Origin: a virus
Taxonomy: Duplodnaviria; Heunggongvirae; Uroviricota; Caudoviricetes
IMG/VR virus record: IMGVR_UViG_3300021440_000016
DNA: 20,351 nucleotides
Direction: 5' to 3' (one strand)
In this document: piece by piece, positions 3,601-18,365 of the stretch
Position numbering within the stretch: the first letter of the stretch is position 1
Layout of the letters: every line of letters begins with the position of its first letter
Notes under the pieces: model-generated
Seen by the model: the letters and a program-made list of their open reading frames with translations, nothing else
What the model was told of the DNA's origin: nothing
Database searches by the model: none
Made by a program: the position numbers and the translations under genes

Positions 3601-4431
3601 TTAATTATCCTCTTCTGTCCACTCAATATACAAAGTAAAAGAGCCCTCTTCCAAAGTAGCTCCATTTAAATTTAAACATAGGTAATCATTAGGAGATTTG
3701 AGTATAGGTTGTTGACTACCTACTTCTGGAAAATTCCATTCAAAGGGGACGTTCGGCTCCGTGGTATCACCAATAAACACCTTAGTTGCGCGTATTATTC
3801 CATTAGAACTTGCCAATGAAGGGTTTACGTTATATGCTCGAACCACTGCTCCGGGAGAAGCATTACCATTATCCATAGACGCTATAGGCTCCATAATGGG
3901 GTCGCCGCCGTCGTTGGAGCCCGATCTTTTAATAAGTAGAAAATTTAGGAGCCGTGGATTCCTCTGCGTCCCAGAAATACTAATTTTTGATATTCTTACT
4001 AGCTTCTTCTCTGCCCCTTGAATAGTTAGAATATCTGAAGCTTCGGACGCCGGAACAAGATCAATTGCAGTAGAAACATAGGTCCGTCTGGTGTAGACTT
4101 CGGTGTTTATGCTACCGTTTTTATTAATATCTAGGGTAGCTTCTCCGTCAGAAATAGCAATGCTGTCTCCTGTTCCTGCGGAGATGGATACGTCTAGGGT
4201 ACCTTCAATATTTGCATTGATAGAGCCATCAGCATTGATGAGAAGCTCGTTACTATTCGAAGAATTTCTAATAGCAATATTGTCATTGCTTGATTGAATT
4301 TCTACGGCAAAGGGGCCAGCTATCGTAGCCGTGACGGACGCATCTACACGGAGCCTATCATTAGCCTGATCGAAGGATCTCTGTAGGATTTGATTCTGGT
4401 CTAATAACGTAGGACTAGGATTTTTGGCCAT
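3601..4431 (-). CDS. Virion structural protein, function unknown
   Basis: 276-aa ORF directly downstream of the portal with beta-rich composition; context only. Confidence 0.65.
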   Translation of the reverse strand: MAKNPSPTLLDQNQILQRSFDQANDRLRVDASVTATIAGPFAVEIQSSNDNIAIRNSSNSNELLINADGSINANIEGTLDVSISAGTGDSIAISDGEATLDINKNGSINTEVYTRRTYVSTAIDLVPASEASDILTIQGAEKKLVRISKISISGTQRNPRLLNFLLIKRSGSNDGGDPIMEPIASMDNGNASPGAVVRAYNVNPSLASSNGIIRATKVFIGDTTEPNVPFEWNFPEVGSQQPILKSPNDYLCLNLNGATLEEGSFTLYIEWTEEDN

Positions 4432-11968: not shown

Positions 11969-12330
11969 GAATTGTTTTTATATCTATTGGATTTGTTTAG
12001 ACTTAATCAGATCCGTTGATTGATATTGATTCTAGCCCTCATTGTCAATCTTACCTTTCCCCTATTGTGTCAGACACTACCGAGTCTCAGCTGACACTGA
12101 ACTGTTTAAATTTAGTCCCGTTAACTGAATCGGTTTAGTGCCCGGGAGGAGTAGGGTCGACTTTCTGTATATAATGATACAAGAGCGGCGGGTGAGCTAC
12201 GCTTTACAGGTAGACGGGAAGGGGATGAAATAGCGTGATTCTTCCCTCCTCTCTTTTTTTTTCCCACAATCTCCCCAGCTTAACCCTTTTTCCTCCCCGT
12301 GTCTCAACTGACACAATTGTGGAAAAAACC

Positions 12331-13603: not shown

Positions 13604-13993
13604 ATGAATACTAACACGATGCATTATTTTATTCTCTCCGCTGAACTGAGTACCCGTCCGGGCCTTACCAATGCCGCTAATACGCAGGATCTTAGGGACA
13701 AGCTTAGCCGCATGGGATACCCCTTCACGGAAGCGGAAGGTTTCTATAACGGCTCTAAAGAAGTGTCCTTTGTTGTTGGTTGCACCTTTGCCGATGTCGG
13801 CAAGCTTAGGCAGGGCATTATGTCTCTTGCGGAATCTTATGGACAGGAGTCAATTGCTTATGTCGACAATGAATCCCGCTTGACTCTTGAATACCCTAAT
13901 GGTATCCGCGAGTATATCGGCAAGCTCGAACTTGATGATAAGGCGCTTGACTTTTATACTAAGATTAATGGTAACAAGTATTCCGCTAAGTGA
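13604..13993 (+). CDS. Phage SAM lyase (T3 SAMase family), paralog A
   Basis: By-eye alignment with T3 SAMase: FILSAE..N (T3 VLVSAF..N), GFY (GCY), conserved E, YGQES (WEQDC), LEYPNG (LVYAKG) and C-terminal YT..NG.KY. Confidence 0.75.
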   Translation: MNTNTMHYFILSAELSTRPGLTNAANTQDLRDKLSRMGYPFTEAEGFYNGSKEVSFVVGCTFADVGKLRQGIMSLAESYGQESIAYVDNESRLTLEYPNGIREYIGKLELDDKALDFYTKINGNKYSAK

Positions 13994-14005
13994 AAGGATT
14001 GGAAT

Positions 14006-14320
14006 ATGAAGTCAATTAAAAAAATTAAGTTCACCGCCAAGCTTTTTACCGAAGGCTCATGGGGCACCCGCAGCATTGCCGGCAAGCATCCTTGCACCAT
14101 GGAACTTTTCGGCGGTACCGTATCCACCGACGGCCATCGGAAATATTATCAAATTGAGTTTGTTGCCGGGAAGGATGGCTGTGTTGGCGTAGAACATATC
14201 GGTCTCACAGTTAACGAAAATAATGAATTGGTCGACTATGATGGGGTCTTTAGTATTCCTTTGGAAGGTATCAAGTTGATTGAATCTGTTGGTATTATCG
14301 TATCGGATGATTTTCGGTAA
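14006..14320 (+). CDS. Hypothetical early protein
   Basis: 104-aa ORF with RBS in the early operon. Confidence 0.75.
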   Translation: MKSIKKIKFTAKLFTEGSWGTRSIAGKHPCTMELFGGTVSTDGHRKYYQIEFVAGKDGCVGVEHIGLTVNENNELVDYDGVFSIPLEGIKLIESVGIIVSDDFR

Positions 14321-14329
14321 GAGGATTTT

Positions 14330-14473
14330 ATGAAGAAGATTAACACTAAAGCTTGCCCTCTTATGCAAAAGCTAGTTGATATCGTCCTAACCGTCCTAAT
14401 CGCCTCTATAGCCTTTGGAAGCTTAGTTTCAGTAGTTGTGATTATGGGTGCTATATCCCGCGCTCTTAACTGA
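14330..14473 (+). CDS. 47-aa membrane peptide, paralog B
   Basis: GAGG RBS; contains VLTVLIASIAFGSLVSV, matching VVTLLIASLAFGSLLAV of paralog A. Confidence 0.7.
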   Translation: MKKINTKACPLMQKLVDIVLTVLIASIAFGSLVSVVVIMGAISRALN

Positions 14474-14488
14474 TTAAGGAGATTATTT

Positions 14489-14878
14489 ATGAATAACAAT
14501 GTGATGCATCATTTTATTGTGTCTGCTGAAAAGTCTAATCGTCCGAGCATGGTTAACTCCGCCAACACTAAAGAGTTGACCCTAAAGCTTTCTGAGCTTG
14601 GATATCCCTTTACTCAAGCACAAGGATGCTATAACGGAACTACCGAAGTATCCTTTATCGTCGCTTGTCAATTCAAGGATATGCCTAAGCTGAAACGTGA
14701 ATTGCTTGCAATTGCCGATAGTTATGCTCAAGATTGTATCGCATATGTGGATAATGAATCACGCTTGACGTTGGAATATAGCAATGGTATCAGTGAGTAT
14801 ATCGGTAAGTTGTCTGTTGACAACGAAGCGAGCGACGCATATACAAGCGTCAATGGAATGAAGTATAGCGCTAAGTAA
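14489..14878 (+). CDS. Phage SAM lyase (T3 SAMase family), paralog B
   Basis: Same length as paralog A, with 80/129 identical residues by ungapped hand count; has GCY and QDC motifs as in T3 SAMase. Confidence 0.8.
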   Translation: MNNNVMHHFIVSAEKSNRPSMVNSANTKELTLKLSELGYPFTQAQGCYNGTTEVSFIVACQFKDMPKLKRELLAIADSYAQDCIAYVDNESRLTLEYSNGISEYIGKLSVDNEASDAYTSVNGMKYSAK

Positions 14879-14892
14879 AAGGACTAAACAAT

Positions 14893-15093
14893 ATGAAGAC
14901 TTATAAAAAGATTGACCTATTCTTTAATGGGGACTATCTCTGTTCTACGAATCAGTCTAAAACATTGAAAGATGCAAGAAAAAAATACGTTGAGTCTCTA
15001 GAACATAGGGGCCATACGCTTGGAAAGATATCCTTCCTTGAAGAGTATATTCTAAAACATAGTACATTGATCAAGTGTAAGTTTTCGAAATGA
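14893..15093 (+). CDS. Hypothetical early protein
   Basis: 66-aa ORF with RBS; its N-terminus (MKTYKKI) resembles that of 14006 (MKSIKKI). Confidence 0.7.
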   Translation: MKTYKKIDLFFNGDYLCSTNQSKTLKDARKKYVESLEHRGHTLGKISFLEEYILKHSTLIKCKFSK

Positions 15094-15100
15094 GGATTAT

Positions 15101-15439
15101 ATGAAAAAAATTAAACGCGAAGTTATTGACCTTGTCCCTGTTGGCCTTTGGCTTGTGTCCTTTGACCGGATATGGGATATTAACGAAGAGACTGGCCATG
15201 AGCGGATTAGTGATATTGAGCCCATGGAATTGAAACGAGTTACCTCCAAGAGTTACCTTAGCCTGTGTGAAGACGTGGTTAATAAGGATATTAATTGGAA
15301 TACCGACCATGTGAACGACGATACTCATGATTTTAGGCCGCGCTTGTTTAAGACTAAGAAAGAAGCACTTGAACATATCAAGTATACAGTGAATCGGTTT
15401 AAGAATCCCCAGCCATGGGAATCTTTTATTAAGTTCTAA
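15101..15439 (+). CDS. Hypothetical early protein
   Basis: 112-aa ORF with GAGG RBS. Confidence 0.75.
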   Translation: MKKIKREVIDLVPVGLWLVSFDRIWDINEETGHERISDIEPMELKRVTSKSYLSLCEDVVNKDINWNTDHVNDDTHDFRPRLFKTKKEALEHIKYTVNRFKNPQPWESFIKF

Positions 15440-15449
15440 AGGAGTTAAT

Positions 15450-15683
15450 ATGCGAACGTTTGAAATTATCGAATGGGTAACGCTAGCGAGCGGCGATACT
15501 GTACGACGGGTAAAGGAGACTCGGGAGTTTAATAACCTTAGACATGCAATGACCGTCCTTACTTATGAGTGTTATGCTCCATCAATGATTGACTATCGTA
15601 TCACTAACAATGAGTTAGTTGCTTTTAATGTTGACACTCCCGATGTGAAATTGTACATCATCCGGGAATACAAGGAGATTTAA
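15450..15683 (+). CDS. Hypothetical early protein
   Basis: 77-aa ORF with AAGGAG RBS. Confidence 0.75.
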   Translation: MRTFEIIEWVTLASGDTVRRVKETREFNNLRHAMTVLTYECYAPSMIDYRITNNELVAFNVDTPDVKLYIIREYKEI

Positions 15684-15684
15684 T

Positions 15685-15945
15685 ATGTCGAACGACAATA
15701 CCTATAACGGATGAGCTAACTGGGAAACTTGGAATGTAGCCCTTTGGATTGATAACGATGAATTCCTTTATGGAGCCGCACGAATGTTCCGACATAAGTT
15801 TAGGCCTTATAAAGAATTTGTGGAATACATGAAAAGCTTTGATTCAGAAATCGGGGAAATCCGTTTGCAAACTCCGGATGGCGTTGCATGGAATGATTCA
15901 GGGCTGGACACCGATGAATTGGATAAGATGATTCAAGATCTTTGA
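15685..15945 (+). pseudogene. Member of the common phage YNGWxNxETWNVxLW family, interrupted by TGA at the first Trp (15712-14)
   Basis: MSNDNTYNG*ANWETWNVALWIDNDEFLY...ELDKMIQDL; the motif is recognisable and the stop falls where W is expected. Confidence 0.75.
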
Positions 15946-15998
15946 ATAGTTGAGTCGAAAGATCGAAGATATTGACACAAACATTGAGGATCTTTAAT

Positions 15999-16199
15999 AT
16001 GACACGTTACCAAGTGTATGTAGAGAATGAACCGATGCAAGATTTTACTAACATCGATTCAGCTATTGATTATGCATCTAGTCATGTGTATTTAGATCCT
16101 AAGTTAGGACGCGCTGTAAAGTTTGAACTAGAAAATAATAAGTCGGTTAAGTATAGCTATGGGTTTAAAAGTGTAGAACTAAAGCCCATTGAAAATTAG
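15999..16199 (+). CDS. Hypothetical early protein
   Basis: Track ORF 15972..16199; ATG 15999 has a GAGG RBS. Confidence 0.65.
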   Translation: MTRYQVYVENEPMQDFTNIDSAIDYASSHVYLDPKLGRAVKFELENNKSVKYSYGFKSVELKPIEN

Positions 16200-16241
16200 T
16201 CCCGCGCACGGAAGCACTAGAAGTTGCGGAGAGTTTTTAAC

Positions 16242-16321
16242 CGGGCTGTATCCCCTTCCTCTTATAAAGGATAGAAAGGGTAGTTGGTAACACGTGGGTT
16301 CAAATCCCACCAGCCCGACCA
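16242..16321 (+). tRNA. Atypical tRNA-like RNA, anticodon UAU (Ile-like), non-canonical arm order, CCA encoded
   Basis: Acceptor CGGGCTG/CAGCCCG plus A-CCA; T arm GTGGG-TTCAAAT-CCCAC; anticodon arm TCCT-CTTATAA-AGGA. There is no D arm 5' of the anticodon arm, and AGTTGGTA occurs 3' of it. Confidence 0.8.
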
Positions 16322-16329
16322 TTTTATTT

Positions 16330-16446
16330 ATGATTGAATACCAATACAAATGCCCTAAATGTAATAAAACCATTACATTAGGGAGCAGACACAACTACTA
16401 TAAGTGCCCCTATTGTAAAAAAGCTAAGATGTATATTGTCAAGTAA
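16330..16446 (+). CDS. 38-aa Zn-ribbon protein
   Basis: MIEYQYKCPKC...YKCPYC; two CxxC motifs. Confidence 0.6.
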   Translation: MIEYQYKCPKCNKTITLGSRHNYYKCPYCKKAKMYIVK

Positions 16447-16456
16447 AGGAGTAAGT

Positions 16457-16714
16457 ATGTACGTTATTAAAGCCCTATTCCGAGTAGATCCTAATGCCTA
16501 CACTGTACAGGAATTTGTCCTTAATAAGGAAAGTCAATGGGTAATCGCCACTGGGGATGCTATTATGTTCTATAATGTTGAAAGCGCAGTGAATTTTGCT
16601 AAGGGTTCTAAAATTATAGAAAGTCTATCTAGACTCGGATCGGGATCAATGCCTTATATCGTCGGGCCGCGCGGCGGGAAGTATTCAATCTTTACCGGGA
16701 GACTTTTAAAATGA
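16457..16714 (+). CDS. Hypothetical early protein
   Basis: Track ORF 16436..16714; ATG 16457 has an AAGGAG RBS. Confidence 0.7.
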   Translation: MYVIKALFRVDPNAYTVQEFVLNKESQWVIATGDAIMFYNVESAVNFAKGSKIIESLSRLGSGSMPYIVGPRGGKYSIFTGRLLK

Positions 16715-16947
16715 GCGGGGAAAAAGAATTTATTTATGAATATGAGCACTATGTAAAGACTATGCCCTATAGCGAAGTGATGATGCATATGAAGCTGACA
16801 GGTACTAAATGTCGTATCAGCTTTCAAGGTGTATCAGTTAAAGTGTGACCAGATATTGACCGTGGTGGATACGTTACTGTAACTCCCAGCGAAGCTGGCC
16901 TACATTGGGACGACGAAGAGAATCGGTATTACTTTCGTAAGGAGTGA
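16711..16947 (+). pseudogene. Early ORF interrupted by an in-frame TGA at 16846-48
   Basis: 45 codons, TGA, then 32 sense codons (PDIDRGGYVTVTPSEAGLHWDDEENRYYFRKE) ending 2 nt before the next ATG; the downstream part has no start or RBS of its own. Confidence 0.55.
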
Positions 16948-16949
16948 AT

Positions 16950-17396
16950 ATGTTTAAATCTATTAACGTTGAAAAGAAGTTTTCGAAACTGAATAAAGAG
17001 CTTAAGAATGAATACGGAAGTAAGGCGGTTCAGGCCATCTTCAATGGAGATCAATACGGCGCCGAACATTACTCAAGGAGGGGAGCTAAAGGATTTTCCT
17101 TTAGCGTCCCTTACCGTCCGCGCTTGCGTATTTTTAAATCATCTAGCGGCAAGCTTGTGTTTAACCCTTATACCGGTCATGGTACTAGCTATGATTGGTA
17201 TTCTATTGCCCAAGTGTTTAATGGTAAATTGATTCTAAATACTTATCGTTATAGCGTTACCACTAATAAACATATCCAGGAACTACATTCCCTCTTTAAT
17301 CAACTCGGTCTGAAGTATCAGACCATTGAAGCACCTAGAGGATTGCAGGACCTAGATCAAGCAATGCGTTCTAACACTCTCGCGCTTTACGGTTAA
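16950..17396 (+). CDS. Hypothetical phage protein
   Basis: Track ORF 16944..17396; ATG 16950 has an AAGGAG RBS. Confidence 0.75.
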   Translation: MFKSINVEKKFSKLNKELKNEYGSKAVQAIFNGDQYGAEHYSRRGAKGFSFSVPYRPRLRIFKSSSGKLVFNPYTGHGTSYDWYSIAQVFNGKLILNTYRYSVTTNKHIQELHSLFNQLGLKYQTIEAPRGLQDLDQAMRSNTLALYG

Positions 17397-17536: not shown

Positions 17537-18097
17537 ATGTCTGGCTGCAGGCCGCTTACTAGGGAAGAATCGGATAAAGTTTTATCTCTGCTTAAAACAC
17601 AGCGAGATAAGACTTTGTTCATTCTTGGTATTAAATCAGGATTTCGTATCTCCGAATTGTTGACTATCCGAGTCAGGGATATTATCCAGAATGATCAGGT
17701 AGTTAATAGAATCAAGGTGTCTAGGATGTACATGAAAGCTAACAGGACAAGAGAAGTAGCTCTTAATCCCGTTGCTAAAGAATACATTCTGGAGTTGATT
17801 CTTCGGGACAAGTTGGAACCGAATCATTATCTATTCCGCTCTAGGAAAGGAGACAACAAGCCTATCACGCGGGTACAAGCTTGGTATGTGCTGAAGCAGG
17901 CATTCAACACGGCAGGGCTACTCGGGACTACTGGTACACATTCCATGCGAAAGTCCTTCGGCATGAATGTCTATAGGGCTTTAGGTAATGATCTAGTAGC
18001 CACGCAGAAAGCGTTGGGCCATTCGGACATTGGCTCTACTATTGCATATCTTCCCACGGACGACGAGGAGATTGACAAGGTGATTGTAAATCTGTAG
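17537..18097 (+). CDS. Small tyrosine recombinase (catalytic domain only)
   Basis: GFRISE (R), K in VSRMYMK, THSMRK (H-x-x-R), LGHS (H) and TIAYL (Y); 186 aa. Confidence 0.92.
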   Translation: MSGCRPLTREESDKVLSLLKTQRDKTLFILGIKSGFRISELLTIRVRDIIQNDQVVNRIKVSRMYMKANRTREVALNPVAKEYILELILRDKLEPNHYLFRSRKGDNKPITRVQAWYVLKQAFNTAGLLGTTGTHSMRKSFGMNVYRALGNDLVATQKALGHSDIGSTIAYLPTDDEEIDKVIVNL

Positions 18098-18180: not shown

Positions 18181-18245
18181 CAGTAGGTAGTTTAATAGGT
18201 TAAAACACCGGAAGGAGACTGCAGGTTCAACTCCTGTCCTACTGC
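18181..18245 (+). ncRNA. tRNA-like RNA with the anticodon arm reduced to a 2-bp GGAA tetraloop
   Basis: Acceptor CAGTAGG/CCTACTG (extends to 10 bp); TA linker; D arm GTTT-AATAGGTTA-AAAC; CC-GGAA-GG; variable AGACT; T arm GCAGG-TTCAACT-CCTGT; no encoded CCA. Confidence 0.8.
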
Positions 18246-18301
18246 TTATTAATTTATCCTATCGTTAAAAATTAGTCCCGGCAAAAACAAGGGCATGATT
18301 T

Positions 18302-18335
18302 GGGGCGGGTTTAAAAGACTTGCCCCTTTTTATTT
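18302..18335 (+). terminator. Rho-independent terminator
   Basis: GGGGCGGGT/ACTTGCCCC stem followed by TTTTTATTT. Confidence 0.85.
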
Positions 18336-18336
18336 C

Positions 18337-18365
18337 TTGACGCCCGCTGAAGCCTTTTGTATAGA
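18337..18365 (+). promoter_or_regulatory. Putative sigma70-type promoter of the response regulator
   Basis: TTGACG, 17 nt, TATAGA; the predicted +1 falls at or next to ATG 18372. Confidence 0.45.

What the first reader, a model, noticed from the sequence alone, without database searches (positions are those of the whole stretch)
16242..16321. tRNA-like gene with rearranged arm order (D-loop consensus located after the anticodon arm), anticodon UAU
Seen: a 7-bp acceptor, discriminator A, encoded CCA, a canonical T arm and a 7-nt anticodon loop CU-UAU-AA. The 5' side has only TATCCCCT instead of a D arm. CCCT(16253-56) can pair with AGGG(16277-80) to enclose the anticodon hairpin, and the D-loop consensus AGTTGGTA (16282-89) sits in the variable-region position just before the T arm. 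Established: the D-loop GG contacts the T loop to form the elbow, and bacteria normally read AUA with lysidine-modified CAU, so UAU anticodons are rare. Inference: an alternative topology that rebuilds an L-shape, acting either as a TilS-independent AUA decoder or as a decoy resistant to or titrating host anticodon nucleases.
Basis: partly seen in the sequence, partly recalled or inferred. Interest (0 to 1): 0.8.

Follow-up and report, generated by a model that had tools for sequence, protein, structure and literature searches.

The report
Phage isoleucine tRNA with rewired D-arm
This 80-base phage gene is an intact member of a widespread, almost never annotated class of transfer RNAs in which half of the D-stem plus the D-loop lies after the anticodon arm instead of before it, so it breaks the textbook cloverleaf wiring yet most likely still reads the isoleucine codon AUA.

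Summary
Window 16242-16321(+) has a 7-bp acceptor stem, U8-A9, no D hairpin, an anticodon hairpin with loop CU-UAU-AA, a canonical T arm, discriminator A and an encoded CCA. ARAGORN finds nothing. Rfam tRNA scores 33.8 bits (cut-off 29).

It is not a one-off. I collected 138 distinct Ile-type relatives (UAU or GAU) from phage contigs, 21 contigs with CAU versions, about ten Arg versions and 24 bacterial contigs.

Covariation supports a 3-bp helix, 16252-54 with 16278-80, that encloses the anticodon hairpin. A variable-arm hairpin is rejected.

The displaced A-G-N-N-G-G-N block behaves like D-loop positions 14-20. The base after GG is U with A73 in Ile members, and A with G73 in Arg members, as in canonical neighbouring tRNAs.

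Members sit in tRNA rows on the same strand. They usually carry the Ile anticodon that the local canonical tRNA-Ile lacks.

Best reading: a working tRNA-Ile(UAU) with a permuted core. A decoy role is not excluded. Expression and charging are untested.

This scan has reported the class before on other DNA. I found no published description.

The parts
16242..16248 (+). Acceptor stem, 5' strand (CGGGCUG)
   Evidence: Pairs with 16311-16317. All 7 pairs show double changes in the family.
16249..16250 (+). U8-A9
   Evidence: Invariant in 138 of 138 distinct members, including those found with patterns that left these positions free.
16251..16251 (+). U opposite U16281; inferred equivalent of the 22.13 layer
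   Evidence: U in 135 of 138 members. The two members with A here could form A-U with the invariant U. The equivalence is inferred.
16252..16254 (+). CCC, 5' strand of the 3-bp helix (equivalent of D-stem positions 23-25)
   Evidence: Covaries with 16278-80. There are 13 strand combinations, and 137 of 138 members are fully paired. On A1 the helix is 99.2% paired.
16255..16255 (+). Invariant unpaired C (position-26-like)
   Evidence: C in 138 of 138 members. It does not covary with 16278.
16256..16272 (+). Anticodon arm: a U.U layer (16256, 16272), a 4-bp stem (16257-60 with 16268-71) and the loop CUUAUAA (16261-67) with anticodon UAU at 16263-65
   Evidence: The stem is 100% paired with double changes at all 4 pairs. 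The loop is C-U-[U/G]-A-U-A-N across the Ile members.
16273..16277 (+). AGAAA bulge (N-G-A-A-A)
   Evidence: GAAA was fixed by every search pattern I used, so its conservation is not shown independently. The first base varies freely. Its role is inferred.
16278..16280 (+). GGG, 3' strand of the 3-bp helix (equivalent of D-stem positions 10-12)
   Evidence: Covaries with 16252-54.
16281..16293 (+). UAGUUGGUAACAC: displaced D-loop equivalent (A14, G15, N16, N17, G18, G19, U20 ... C, A21-like, C48-like) leading into the T stem
   Evidence: U-A-G and GG were fixed by my search patterns, so their conservation is not shown independently. The following U (136 of 138) and the C-A were left free and are conserved. 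The base after GG is U in Ile members and A in Arg members, as in canonical neighbouring tRNAs. A hairpin within this block is rejected at 54% paired.
16294..16310 (+). T arm: GUGGG, UUCAAAU, CCCAC
   Evidence: Canonical G53-U54-U55-C56-R57-A58...C61 motif. The stem covaries.
16311..16317 (+). Acceptor stem, 3' strand
16318..16321 (+). Discriminator A73 and genome-encoded CCA
   Evidence: A73 in 138 of 138 Ile members and C74 in 138 of 138. The full CCA is encoded in 21 of 138.

Best explanation
This is a functional elongator tRNA-Ile with anticodon UAU, which reads AUA. It belongs to a widespread, mostly phage-borne class of tRNAs with a permuted core. In canonical numbering the order is 1-9, then 22-26, then the anticodon arm 27-43, then a 5-nt bulge, then 10-21 (one D-stem strand plus the D-loop), then a 48-like base, then the T arm and the acceptor 3' strand. 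The two D-stem strands still pair, as the 3-bp helix 16252-54 with 16278-80 plus a U.U layer. The difference is that the helix is capped by the anticodon arm instead of by the D-loop. The D-loop-like block (A14, G15, G18, G19, U20, A21-like) runs as a single strand from the top of that helix to the T stem. There its GG can dock on the T loop and rebuild the elbow of the L-shape.

The untouched 12-bp acceptor/T-arm stack would serve RNase P, the CCA-end enzymes and EF-Tu. Host IleRS would read A73, A35, U36, A37, A38 and U20. In this phage the gene is a solitary accessory gene in an early operon of small genes, and it most likely supplies AUA decoding for late structural genes.

Shown here: the sequence features, the helix covariation, the class-wide conservation, the tracking of identity elements and the tRNA-row context. 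Inferred: the three-dimensional fold, processing, aminoacylation and use on the ribosome. Why the rewired core is favoured is not known.
For: 1. Class membership. A model built from 42 other members scores the window copy at 96.5 bits. Arg-type members score 70-79 and canonical tRNAs 28 or less.

2. Structure. On 43 sequences 98.8% of cells are paired. Eighteen of 19 pairs show double changes. No shuffle out of 500 reaches the observed score, and registers slid by one to three columns drop to 33-46% paired. RNAalifold gives the identical structure. The 3-bp helix shows 13 strand combinations, and 137 of 138 members are fully paired.

3. The displaced block acts as a D-loop. The base after GG is U in 136 of 138 Ile members, all of which have A73. 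It is A, with G73, in all Arg members (UCU, CCU, ACG) that share the core. Canonical tRNAs in the same loci follow the same rule: Ile U in 44 of 46, Arg A in 139 of 143. The published bacterial identity sets are Ile A73, U20, A35, U36, A37, A38 and Arg A20, C35, A/G73 (PMC9976931).

4. Context. The 234 family loci hold 1479 ordinary tRNAs in 2.09 Mb. Of 236 elements, 129 lie within 300 nt of a tRNA. All 442 neighbouring tRNAs within 500 nt are on the same strand.

5. Slot filling. Rewired GAU occurs with canonical UAU in 23 loci, and rewired UAU with canonical GAU in 17. The same anticodon occurs in both forms in only 4 loci.

6. Total length of 76-78 nt and the 7/5 acceptor/T stack are as in ordinary tRNAs.

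7. The window has 40 AUA codons among 300 Ile codons, mostly in late genes: 8 in the terminase gene and 7 in ORF 3601-4431.
Against: There is no expression, processing or aminoacylation evidence for any member.

The L-shape is inferred by threading onto canonical numbering. No RNA 3D model or probing data exist.

Streptomyces phage LilMartin carries the rewired GAU copy as well as canonical tRNA-Ile(gat) and (tat). The rewired gene can therefore be redundant, which leaves room for a role outside decoding.

An unmodified U34 in UAU could also read AUG. The sequence does not show how that is avoided.

E. coli IleRS determinants in the D stem and anticodon stem (U12-A23, C29-G41) are not conserved in the class.

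UAG, GG and GAAA were fixed in my search patterns, so their invariance is partly by construction.
Confidence: 0.75

Rival explanations
1. It is a tRNA mimic or decoy. The RNA is made and folds like a tRNA, but its main job is not decoding. It would titrate or resist host tRNA-targeting defence nucleases or other tRNA-binding factors, and the rewired core would be the feature that confers resistance or specificity.
For: The core is conserved more strictly than in ordinary tRNAs. A rewired copy coexists with a canonical tRNA of the same anticodon in LilMartin. The window's phage carries counter-defence-type genes nearby, namely two SAM lyases, and a second tRNA-like RNA without an anticodon arm. 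Published work shows that phage tRNAs can counter tRNA-cleaving defences (PMC10264068 and PMC11555353, listed).
Against: A pure decoy has no need for aaRS identity elements that track the anticodon: U20 with A73 for Ile, A20 with G73 for Arg. It also would not need to fill the missing Ile anticodon slot in tRNA rows, which happens in 40 loci against 4. No defence nuclease specific for tRNA-Ile is implicated here. The two roles are not mutually exclusive.
Confidence: 0.15
2. It is a D-arm-less tRNA of the mitochondrial type. It would have a long variable-arm hairpin (GGUA...UACC) or simply a flexible replacement loop, and the GG block would play no D-loop-like role.
For: Rfam aligns it as a tRNA with the D arm deleted and an 18-nt variable-region insertion. 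In the Streptomyces phage copies GGUA and UACC could pair.
Against: The proposed hairpin is only 54% paired across 43 homologs and has no supporting double changes. The 5' CCC does pair with GGG and covaries. The GG and the identity-tracking base after it are conserved.
Confidence: 0.03
3. It is a decayed tRNA pseudogene, a remnant of an integration site, or a tmRNA-like fragment with no function of its own.
For: An integrase-domain ORF lies 1.2 kb downstream at 17537-18097. The Rfam tmRNA model gives a sub-threshold match of 27.6 bits against a cut-off of 47. ARAGORN does not call the gene.
Against: Both acceptor strands are present and all 16 scored acceptor, T-stem and anticodon-stem pairs, plus the 3-bp helix, are intact. 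The same layout is kept across hundreds of phage contigs with compensatory changes. The tmRNA match covers only the acceptor and T arm. ARAGORN finds no tmRNA.
Confidence: 0.02

Closest known systems
Canonical bacterial and phage tRNA-Ile (Rfam RF00005). This includes UAU-anticodon AUA decoders such as those annotated in Streptomyces phage LilMartin and, from my own knowledge, Mycoplasma mobile tRNA-Ile(UAU).
   Same: Shared features are the 7-bp acceptor stem, U8-A9, the anticodon loop C-U-N-A-U-A-N, the T arm with GUUCRANNC, A73 and the CCA end. G18-G19-U20-like and A21-like bases are also present. Total length is about 77 nt, and members sit in tRNA rows on the same strand as ordinary tRNAs.
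   Different: There is no D hairpin at positions 10-25. The strand equivalent to 22-25 follows A9 directly. The strand equivalent to 10-13 plus the D-loop comes after the anticodon arm. There is a 5-nt N-GAAA bulge and no ordinary variable loop. The anticodon stem is 4 bp plus a U.U layer. ARAGORN misses the gene, and Rfam scores it only just above threshold.
D-arm-lacking mitochondrial tRNAs: metazoan mt-tRNA-Ser(AGY) and nematode mt-tRNA-Ser (PMC4013460, PMC7609411)
   Same: There is no D hairpin between the acceptor and anticodon stems. The helical stack on the anticodon side is lengthened (for the literature).
   Different: Per the literature (partly my own knowledge), the mitochondrial forms are shortened and work with co-evolved factors. 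This class keeps full length, keeps both D-stem strands and a D-loop-like block, and occurs in phages and bacteria that have a standard translation apparatus.
Circularly permuted and split tRNA genes: Cyanidioschyzon merolae (PMC3728597) and, from my own knowledge, Nanoarchaeum
   Same: The order of tRNA segments in the DNA departs from the cloverleaf order.
   Different: In those cases the permutation is undone by RNA processing, and the mature tRNA is a normal cloverleaf. Here nothing suggests rearrangement of the RNA. The permutation is internal, affecting only the D-arm segments, and is expected to persist in the mature molecule.
allo-tRNAs and other non-canonical bacterial and phage tRNAs with 8/4 or 9/3 acceptor/T configurations (PMC5389517)
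   Same: These are non-standard tRNA architectures found in bacteria and phages by metagenome mining. UAU is a common anticodon among them.
   Different: allo-tRNAs keep the normal arm order, have a long variable arm and have altered acceptor/T lengths. This class keeps the 7/5 stack and changes the connectivity of the D-arm.

Membership tests
   The window copy scores 96.5 bits (E 3e-27), the top hit. Canonical tRNAs score 28 bits or less.
   UAU-CCC-C at 16249-55 and GGG at 16278-80. The helix covaries in the class.
C-A-N before a canonical T arm | tested here: met
   AGAAA at 16273-77 and UAGUUGGUAACAC at 16281-93.
   The window holds no ordinary tRNA. The terminase-related phages, including one complete 87.6-kb genome, have no tRNA and no R1 match. 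About a quarter of class members also have no tRNA within 2 kb in the DNA held, so this is a frequent feature rather than a strict one.
Canonical tRNA (Rfam RF00005 cloverleaf) | Score at or above the gathering cut-off | tested here: met
   33.8 bits against a cut-off of 29. The Streptomyces phage copies score 29.7 and 29.8.
Canonical tRNA (Rfam RF00005 cloverleaf) | D hairpin between position 9 and the anticodon arm | tested here: not met
   The Rfam alignment reduces the 15 model positions of the D arm to 4 nt. ARAGORN finds no gene.
Canonical tRNA (Rfam RF00005 cloverleaf) | 7-bp acceptor stem, 5-bp T stem with the GUUCRANNC loop, 7-nt anticodon loop with U33, and a discriminator base | tested here: met
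tRNA-Ile accepted by bacterial IleRS | Sequence determinants A73, A35, U36, A37, A38 and U20 (PMC9976931, Table 1) | tested here: met
   All are present in the window copy if the base after GG is read as position 20. A73, A35, U36 and A37 are invariant in the class, and U20 is found in 136 of 138 members.
tRNA-Ile accepted by bacterial IleRS | Determinants U12-A23, C29-G41 and C4-G69 | tested here: not met
   In the window the 12-23 equivalent is G-C, the 29-41 equivalent is C-G and 4-69 is G-C. These pairs vary freely across the class.
tRNA-Ile accepted by bacterial IleRS | Aminoacylation with isoleucine | not testable with these tools
   This needs an in vitro charging assay or an acid-gel or periodate assay from infected cells.
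tmRNA | Rfam or ARAGORN detection with a tag reading frame | tested here: not met
   RF00023 scores 27.6 bits against a cut-off of 47 and covers only the acceptor and T arm, with 328 model positions collapsed to 40 nt. ARAGORN finds no tmRNA.
D-arm-lacking mitochondrial-type tRNA | D arm replaced by a short unstructured loop, with loss of the G18-G19 elbow contact | tested here: not met
   Both D-stem strands are kept and covary. A GG block with an identity-tracking next base is kept.

The most novel reading that the evidence does not exclude
The permuted core is an adaptation, not an accident of descent. On this reading, phages spread a tRNA scaffold for Ile, CAU and Arg anticodons that translation factors still accept. 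Host enzymes that need a normal D-arm would fail to recognise it, or would fail to cleave or modify it. Such enzymes could include tRNA-targeting defence nucleases, certain modification enzymes or quality-control factors. The class would then be a structural form of counter-defence or of decoding control, for example restricting U34 wobble so that UAU reads AUA and not AUG.
Probability: 0.25. Interest if true: 0.9.

Novelty: new variant of a known kind. Interest (0 to 1): 0.78.

Why it matters
The cloverleaf order of arms is treated as universal for tRNAs used by bacterial ribosomes. Known exceptions are shortened mitochondrial tRNAs that rely on co-evolved factors.

If this class is charged and used, the tRNA core can be rebuilt with a different strand connectivity and still serve standard RNase P, CCA-end enzymes, aminoacyl-tRNA synthetases, EF-Tu and ribosomes.

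There are practical consequences too. ARAGORN misses these genes, and none of the GenBank phage records I checked annotates them. Phage tRNA repertoires and codon-supply analyses are therefore incomplete for Ile and Arg.

The class occurs in cultured phages (Streptomyces phages and a Bacteroides crAss-like phage), so the question can be tested directly. A naturally rewired but functional tRNA would also interest tRNA engineers.

Tried and rejected
- ARAGORN on the window found no genes.
- Megablast of the whole window against GenBank phages found no match.
- The Rfam tmRNA, Plastid-ycf2 and other sub-threshold hits at the locus come from the acceptor and T arm or are chance matches.
- A variable-arm hairpin inside the linker is 54% paired and is rejected.
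- A mutual-information scan for further tertiary pairs gave nothing clean beyond the four helices. The last linker base shows only a weak link to pair 7-66.
- Relatives of this phage found through the terminase (L392-L394) have no copy and no tRNA at all, so no same-locus comparison was possible.
- The metagenome scan for this exact allele returned only a contig identical to the window.
- The 'nucleotidyltransferase' gene that lies just upstream of the Streptomyces phage copies was not examined.
- Six literature searches, including a search for the core sequence strings, found no description of this layout. This is not proof that none exists, because subscription journals are not covered.
- An order-level sample (0 of 120 other genomes) and a family-level sample (1 of 40) of the Chryseolinea group show that the bacterial copies are patchy rather than lineage-wide. 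Only a fraction of first-look candidates were scored.

Full report
**What is at the locus**

Window 16242-16321(+) reads as follows:
- acceptor 5' strand CGGGCUG
- U8-A9
- UCCCCU
- a hairpin UCCU / CUUAUAA / AGGA flanked by U and U
- AGAAA
- GGG
- UAGUUGGUAACAC
- a T arm GUGGG / UUCAAAU / CCCAC
- acceptor 3' strand CAGCCCG
- A73 and CCA

ARAGORN reports no tRNA or tmRNA anywhere in the window. Rfam's tRNA model matches 16242-16318 at 33.8 bits against a gathering score of 29. It does so by deleting the D arm (15 model positions reduced to 4 nt) and inserting 18 nt before the T arm.

**It is a member of a large family**

A sensitive blastn against GenBank phages hit only about 133-kb Streptomyces phages (LilMartin, MulchMansion, Angela, Coruscant). 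The match was 85% identical over the body of the element.
- The copies there are unannotated.
- They have the same layout.
- They carry anticodon GAU.
- Their acceptor and anticodon stems show compensatory changes.

A pattern built from the two shared blocks (TATCCCCT ... Three further scans required the 3-nt block after GAAA to differ from GGG and left the 5' block free. They added about 125 more members.

After parsing I had 237 copies and 138 distinct sequences: 91 with UAU and 47 with GAU.

**The helix and its register**

In the three 'not GGG' scans the 5' block changes in step with the 3' block:

| 5' strand | 3' strand | 5' strand | 3' strand |
|---|---|---|---|
| CCC | GGG | CCU | AGG |
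| CUC | GAG | CCG | CGG |
| ACC | GGU | AGG | CCU |
| CGG | CCG | AGA | UCU |
| UCC | GGA | AUC | GAU |
| GCC | GGC | CAC | GUG |

There are 13 combinations in all, and 137 of 138 members are fully paired. The 5' partner was never constrained in those scans, so this is real covariation.

Counts on alignment A1 (43 sequences) for the three candidate structures:

| Structure tested | Paired |
|---|---|
| Columns 11-13 with 37-39 (window 16252-54 with 16278-80) | 99.2%, double changes at all three pairs |
| Hairpin inside the linker (GGUA...UACC) | 54% |

- The whole structure is 98.8% paired. None of 500 shuffles reaches it, and slid registers give 33-46%.
- RNAalifold predicts my structure on its own.
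The comparative data settle the register.
- C16255 is invariant and unpaired. U16256 and U16272 form a conserved U.U layer on a 4-bp anticodon stem.

**The displaced block behaves as a D-loop**

After the helix the family reads U-A-G-N-N-G-G-U-(1-3 nt)-C-A-N, and then the T stem begins.
- UAG, GG and GAAA were fixed in my patterns.
- The U after GG (136 of 138), the C-A, U8-A9 (138 of 138) and A73 (138 of 138) were free and are conserved.

A scan for the same core with position 35 not A found about ten members with Arg anticodons (UCU, CCU, ACG). All of them have GGA instead of GGU, and G73 instead of A73.

Canonical tRNAs from the same loci follow the same rule. The base after the D-loop GG is U in 44 of 46 tRNA-Ile and A in 139 of 143 tRNA-Arg.

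The published bacterial identity sets list A20, C35 and A/G73 for Arg. For Ile they list A73, U20, A35, U36, A37 and A38 (PMC9976931).

So the base after the displaced GG tracks the anticodon exactly as D-loop position 20 does. This argues that the block is a working D-loop and that synthetases read these RNAs.

CAU versions (Ile2 or Met) with GGU and A73 also exist on 21 contigs. The scaffold is therefore not specific to AUA.

**Genomic context of the class**

ARAGORN finds 1479 ordinary tRNAs in the 2.09 Mb of the 234 family loci. It calls the element itself as a tRNA once in 236 copies; two other calls are neighbouring genes that overlap it.
- 129 elements have a tRNA within 300 nt.
- All 442 neighbouring tRNAs within 500 nt are on the same strand.
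- Rewired GAU lies with canonical UAU in 23 loci, and rewired UAU with canonical GAU in 17. Both forms carry the same anticodon in only 4 loci.
- In long rows, such as L290, the rewired gene is the only Ile tRNA within the stretch held.
- The pattern is not absolute. LilMartin has the rewired GAU plus canonical Ile(gat) and Ile(tat), though that phage also duplicates many other tRNAs.

In GenBank phage records the element is never annotated. That covers at least 37 Streptomyces phages, Kehishuvirus 'tikkala' of Bacteroides cellulosilyticus, and bajarodcaudo virus 1.

**It is not phage-only**

A scan of one genome per prokaryotic species gave 24 contigs.
- Several are megabase-scale chromosomal contigs of Chryseolinea, Chryseosolibacter and Ohtaekwangia.
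- There the element (UAU) sits inside long tRNA rows, next to a canonical Ile(GAU) in several of them.
- Four such genomes have exactly one copy each, and each also has TilS above the curated cut-off. The element does not replace the lysidine route there.
- It is patchy: 0 of 120 other genomes sampled from the order and 1 of 40 from the family have it (only part of the first-look candidates were scored).
- This distribution fits horizontally acquired tRNA arrays.

**This window's copy**

The window is part of a tailed phage. It encodes a terminase, a portal protein, a tail-fibre-like protein and an endolysin, followed by a plus-strand block of small genes that includes two SAM lyases. Its terminase is only 29% identical to the nearest GenBank phage.

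The tRNA lies between a small ORF that ends at 16199 and a zinc-ribbon ORF that most likely starts at ATG 16331. It is probably cut out of a polycistronic transcript.
- No ordinary tRNA is present in the window.
- Three IMG/VR relatives by terminase (52-67% identity), one of them a complete 87.6-kb genome, have neither this element nor any tRNA. Here the gene is a solitary, recently acquired accessory gene.
- It encodes the full CCA, as do 21 of 138 members.
- AUA makes up 40 of 300 Ile codons in the window's ORFs and is concentrated in late genes. The early block from 13604 to 17396 has only two. This fits a supply role but is weak evidence.

**Proposed mechanism**

Read in canonical numbering, the order is:
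1. 1-7, U8, A9
2. a 22-like U, then 23-25 (the 5' strand of the helix), then a 26-like C
3. 27-43, the anticodon arm, with U27.U43
4. N-G-A-A-A, which could start like positions 44-45
5. 10-12 (the 3' strand of the helix) and a 13-like U
6. A14, G15, 16, 17, G18, G19, U20, one or two more bases, C, an A21-like A, and a 48-like base
7. 49-76

Every layer of the canonical core has a candidate: 8-14-21, 15-48, 13.22, 12-23 with A9, 11-24, 10-25 with a G45-like base, and 26.

The three new joins (9 to 22, 21 to 48, 45 to 10) link residues that I recall as close in canonical tRNA structures. I could not check this against coordinates.

This threading is inference; no 3D tool was available. The acceptor/T-arm stack is untouched. 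From established knowledge, that stack is what RNase P, the CCA enzymes and EF-Tu mainly recognise.

**Rivals**

- A decoy or mimic role is not excluded and could coexist with decoding. It does not explain the identity-element tracking or the slot-filling pattern.
- A mitochondrial-type armless tRNA with a variable-arm hairpin is rejected by covariation.
- A pseudogene, an integration-site remnant or a tmRNA fragment is contradicted by the intact, covarying structure. The tmRNA match is sub-threshold and covers only the acceptor and T arm.

**Comparison with what is known, and novelty**

The reviews and papers I could read describe:
- D-arm-less and armless mitochondrial tRNAs (PMC4013460, PMC7609411)
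- 8/4 and 9/3 allo-tRNAs (PMC5389517)
- permuted tRNA genes whose mature product is a normal cloverleaf (PMC3728597)

None describes this connectivity. Six full-text searches found nothing on it. No Rfam family other than the generic tRNA and tmRNA models matches.

This scan has reported the same class before on other DNA. One earlier report is marked as having partly failed a later check, and I could not learn which part.

I re-derived the main points independently here. I also found one earlier claim ('phage-only') to be wrong.

I class this as a new structural variant of a known kind of molecule. It is well supported as a conserved gene class, and its function is still inferred.

Noticed in passing
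window 18181-18245 (+): A second tRNA-like gene scores 47.5 bits on Rfam tRNA. It has an acceptor stem (8 bp if the flanking G and C are counted), a normal D arm and a normal T arm. The anticodon arm is replaced by a tiny CC-GGAA-GG hairpin, so it cannot read a codon. It lies 84 nt after an integrase-domain ORF and is followed by a terminator-like hairpin near 18303-18338. ARAGORN misses it. A scan with its D-arm sequence mostly found ordinary phage tRNAs. L378 and L369, however, carry similar tRNA-like genes without a normal anticodon arm.
   Followed up: partly
window 17537-18097 (+): This ORF of 186 aa matches only the catalytic domain of tyrosine integrases (Pfam PF00589, E 2e-22; PHROG 216). 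It has no N-terminal DNA-binding domain, so it is either a truncated integrase or a stand-alone catalytic domain.
   Followed up: no
window 13604-13993 and 14489-14878 (+): Two paralogous SAM lyase genes (Pfam PF23780, E 3e-16 and 8e-18) lie 885 nt apart and share a 68-nt stretch at 75% identity. SAM lyases are typical anti-restriction early genes.
   Followed up: no
window 12109-12120, 16193-16204, 18269-18280 (+): The motif AA(A/T)TTAGTCCCG recurs three times on the plus strand, twice as an exact 12-mer. One copy lies 38 nt upstream of the rewired tRNA and one 24 nt downstream of the second tRNA-like gene. It could be a phage promoter or a processing signal. With mismatches allowed, the count alone is not significant.
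   Followed up: partly
L303, L309, L315, L320, L323 (Chryseolinea, Chryseosolibacter and Ohtaekwangia chromosomes): These Cytophagales genomes carry long chromosomal tRNA rows that include one rewired tRNA-Ile(UAU); L309 and L323 also hold a canonical Ile(GAU) in the row. TilS is present in the four genomes checked. The element was found in only 1 of 40 other genomes sampled from the family, which suggests a horizontally acquired tRNA array.
   Followed up: partly
L336 1494-1568 (-) and L335 9160-9237 (-): These two hits to model R1 score 40 and 34 bits, between canonical tRNAs (28 or less) and clear class members (70 or more). They may be divergent rewired tRNAs with a different core consensus.
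   Followed up: no
L001 958-1479 and L002 962-1483 (Streptomyces phages LilMartin and Coruscant): In the Streptomyces phages the rewired tRNA lies directly after a gene annotated as a nucleotidyltransferase. In Coruscant the annotated FtsK-like CDS start overlaps the unannotated tRNA, so that start is probably miscalled.
   Followed up: no
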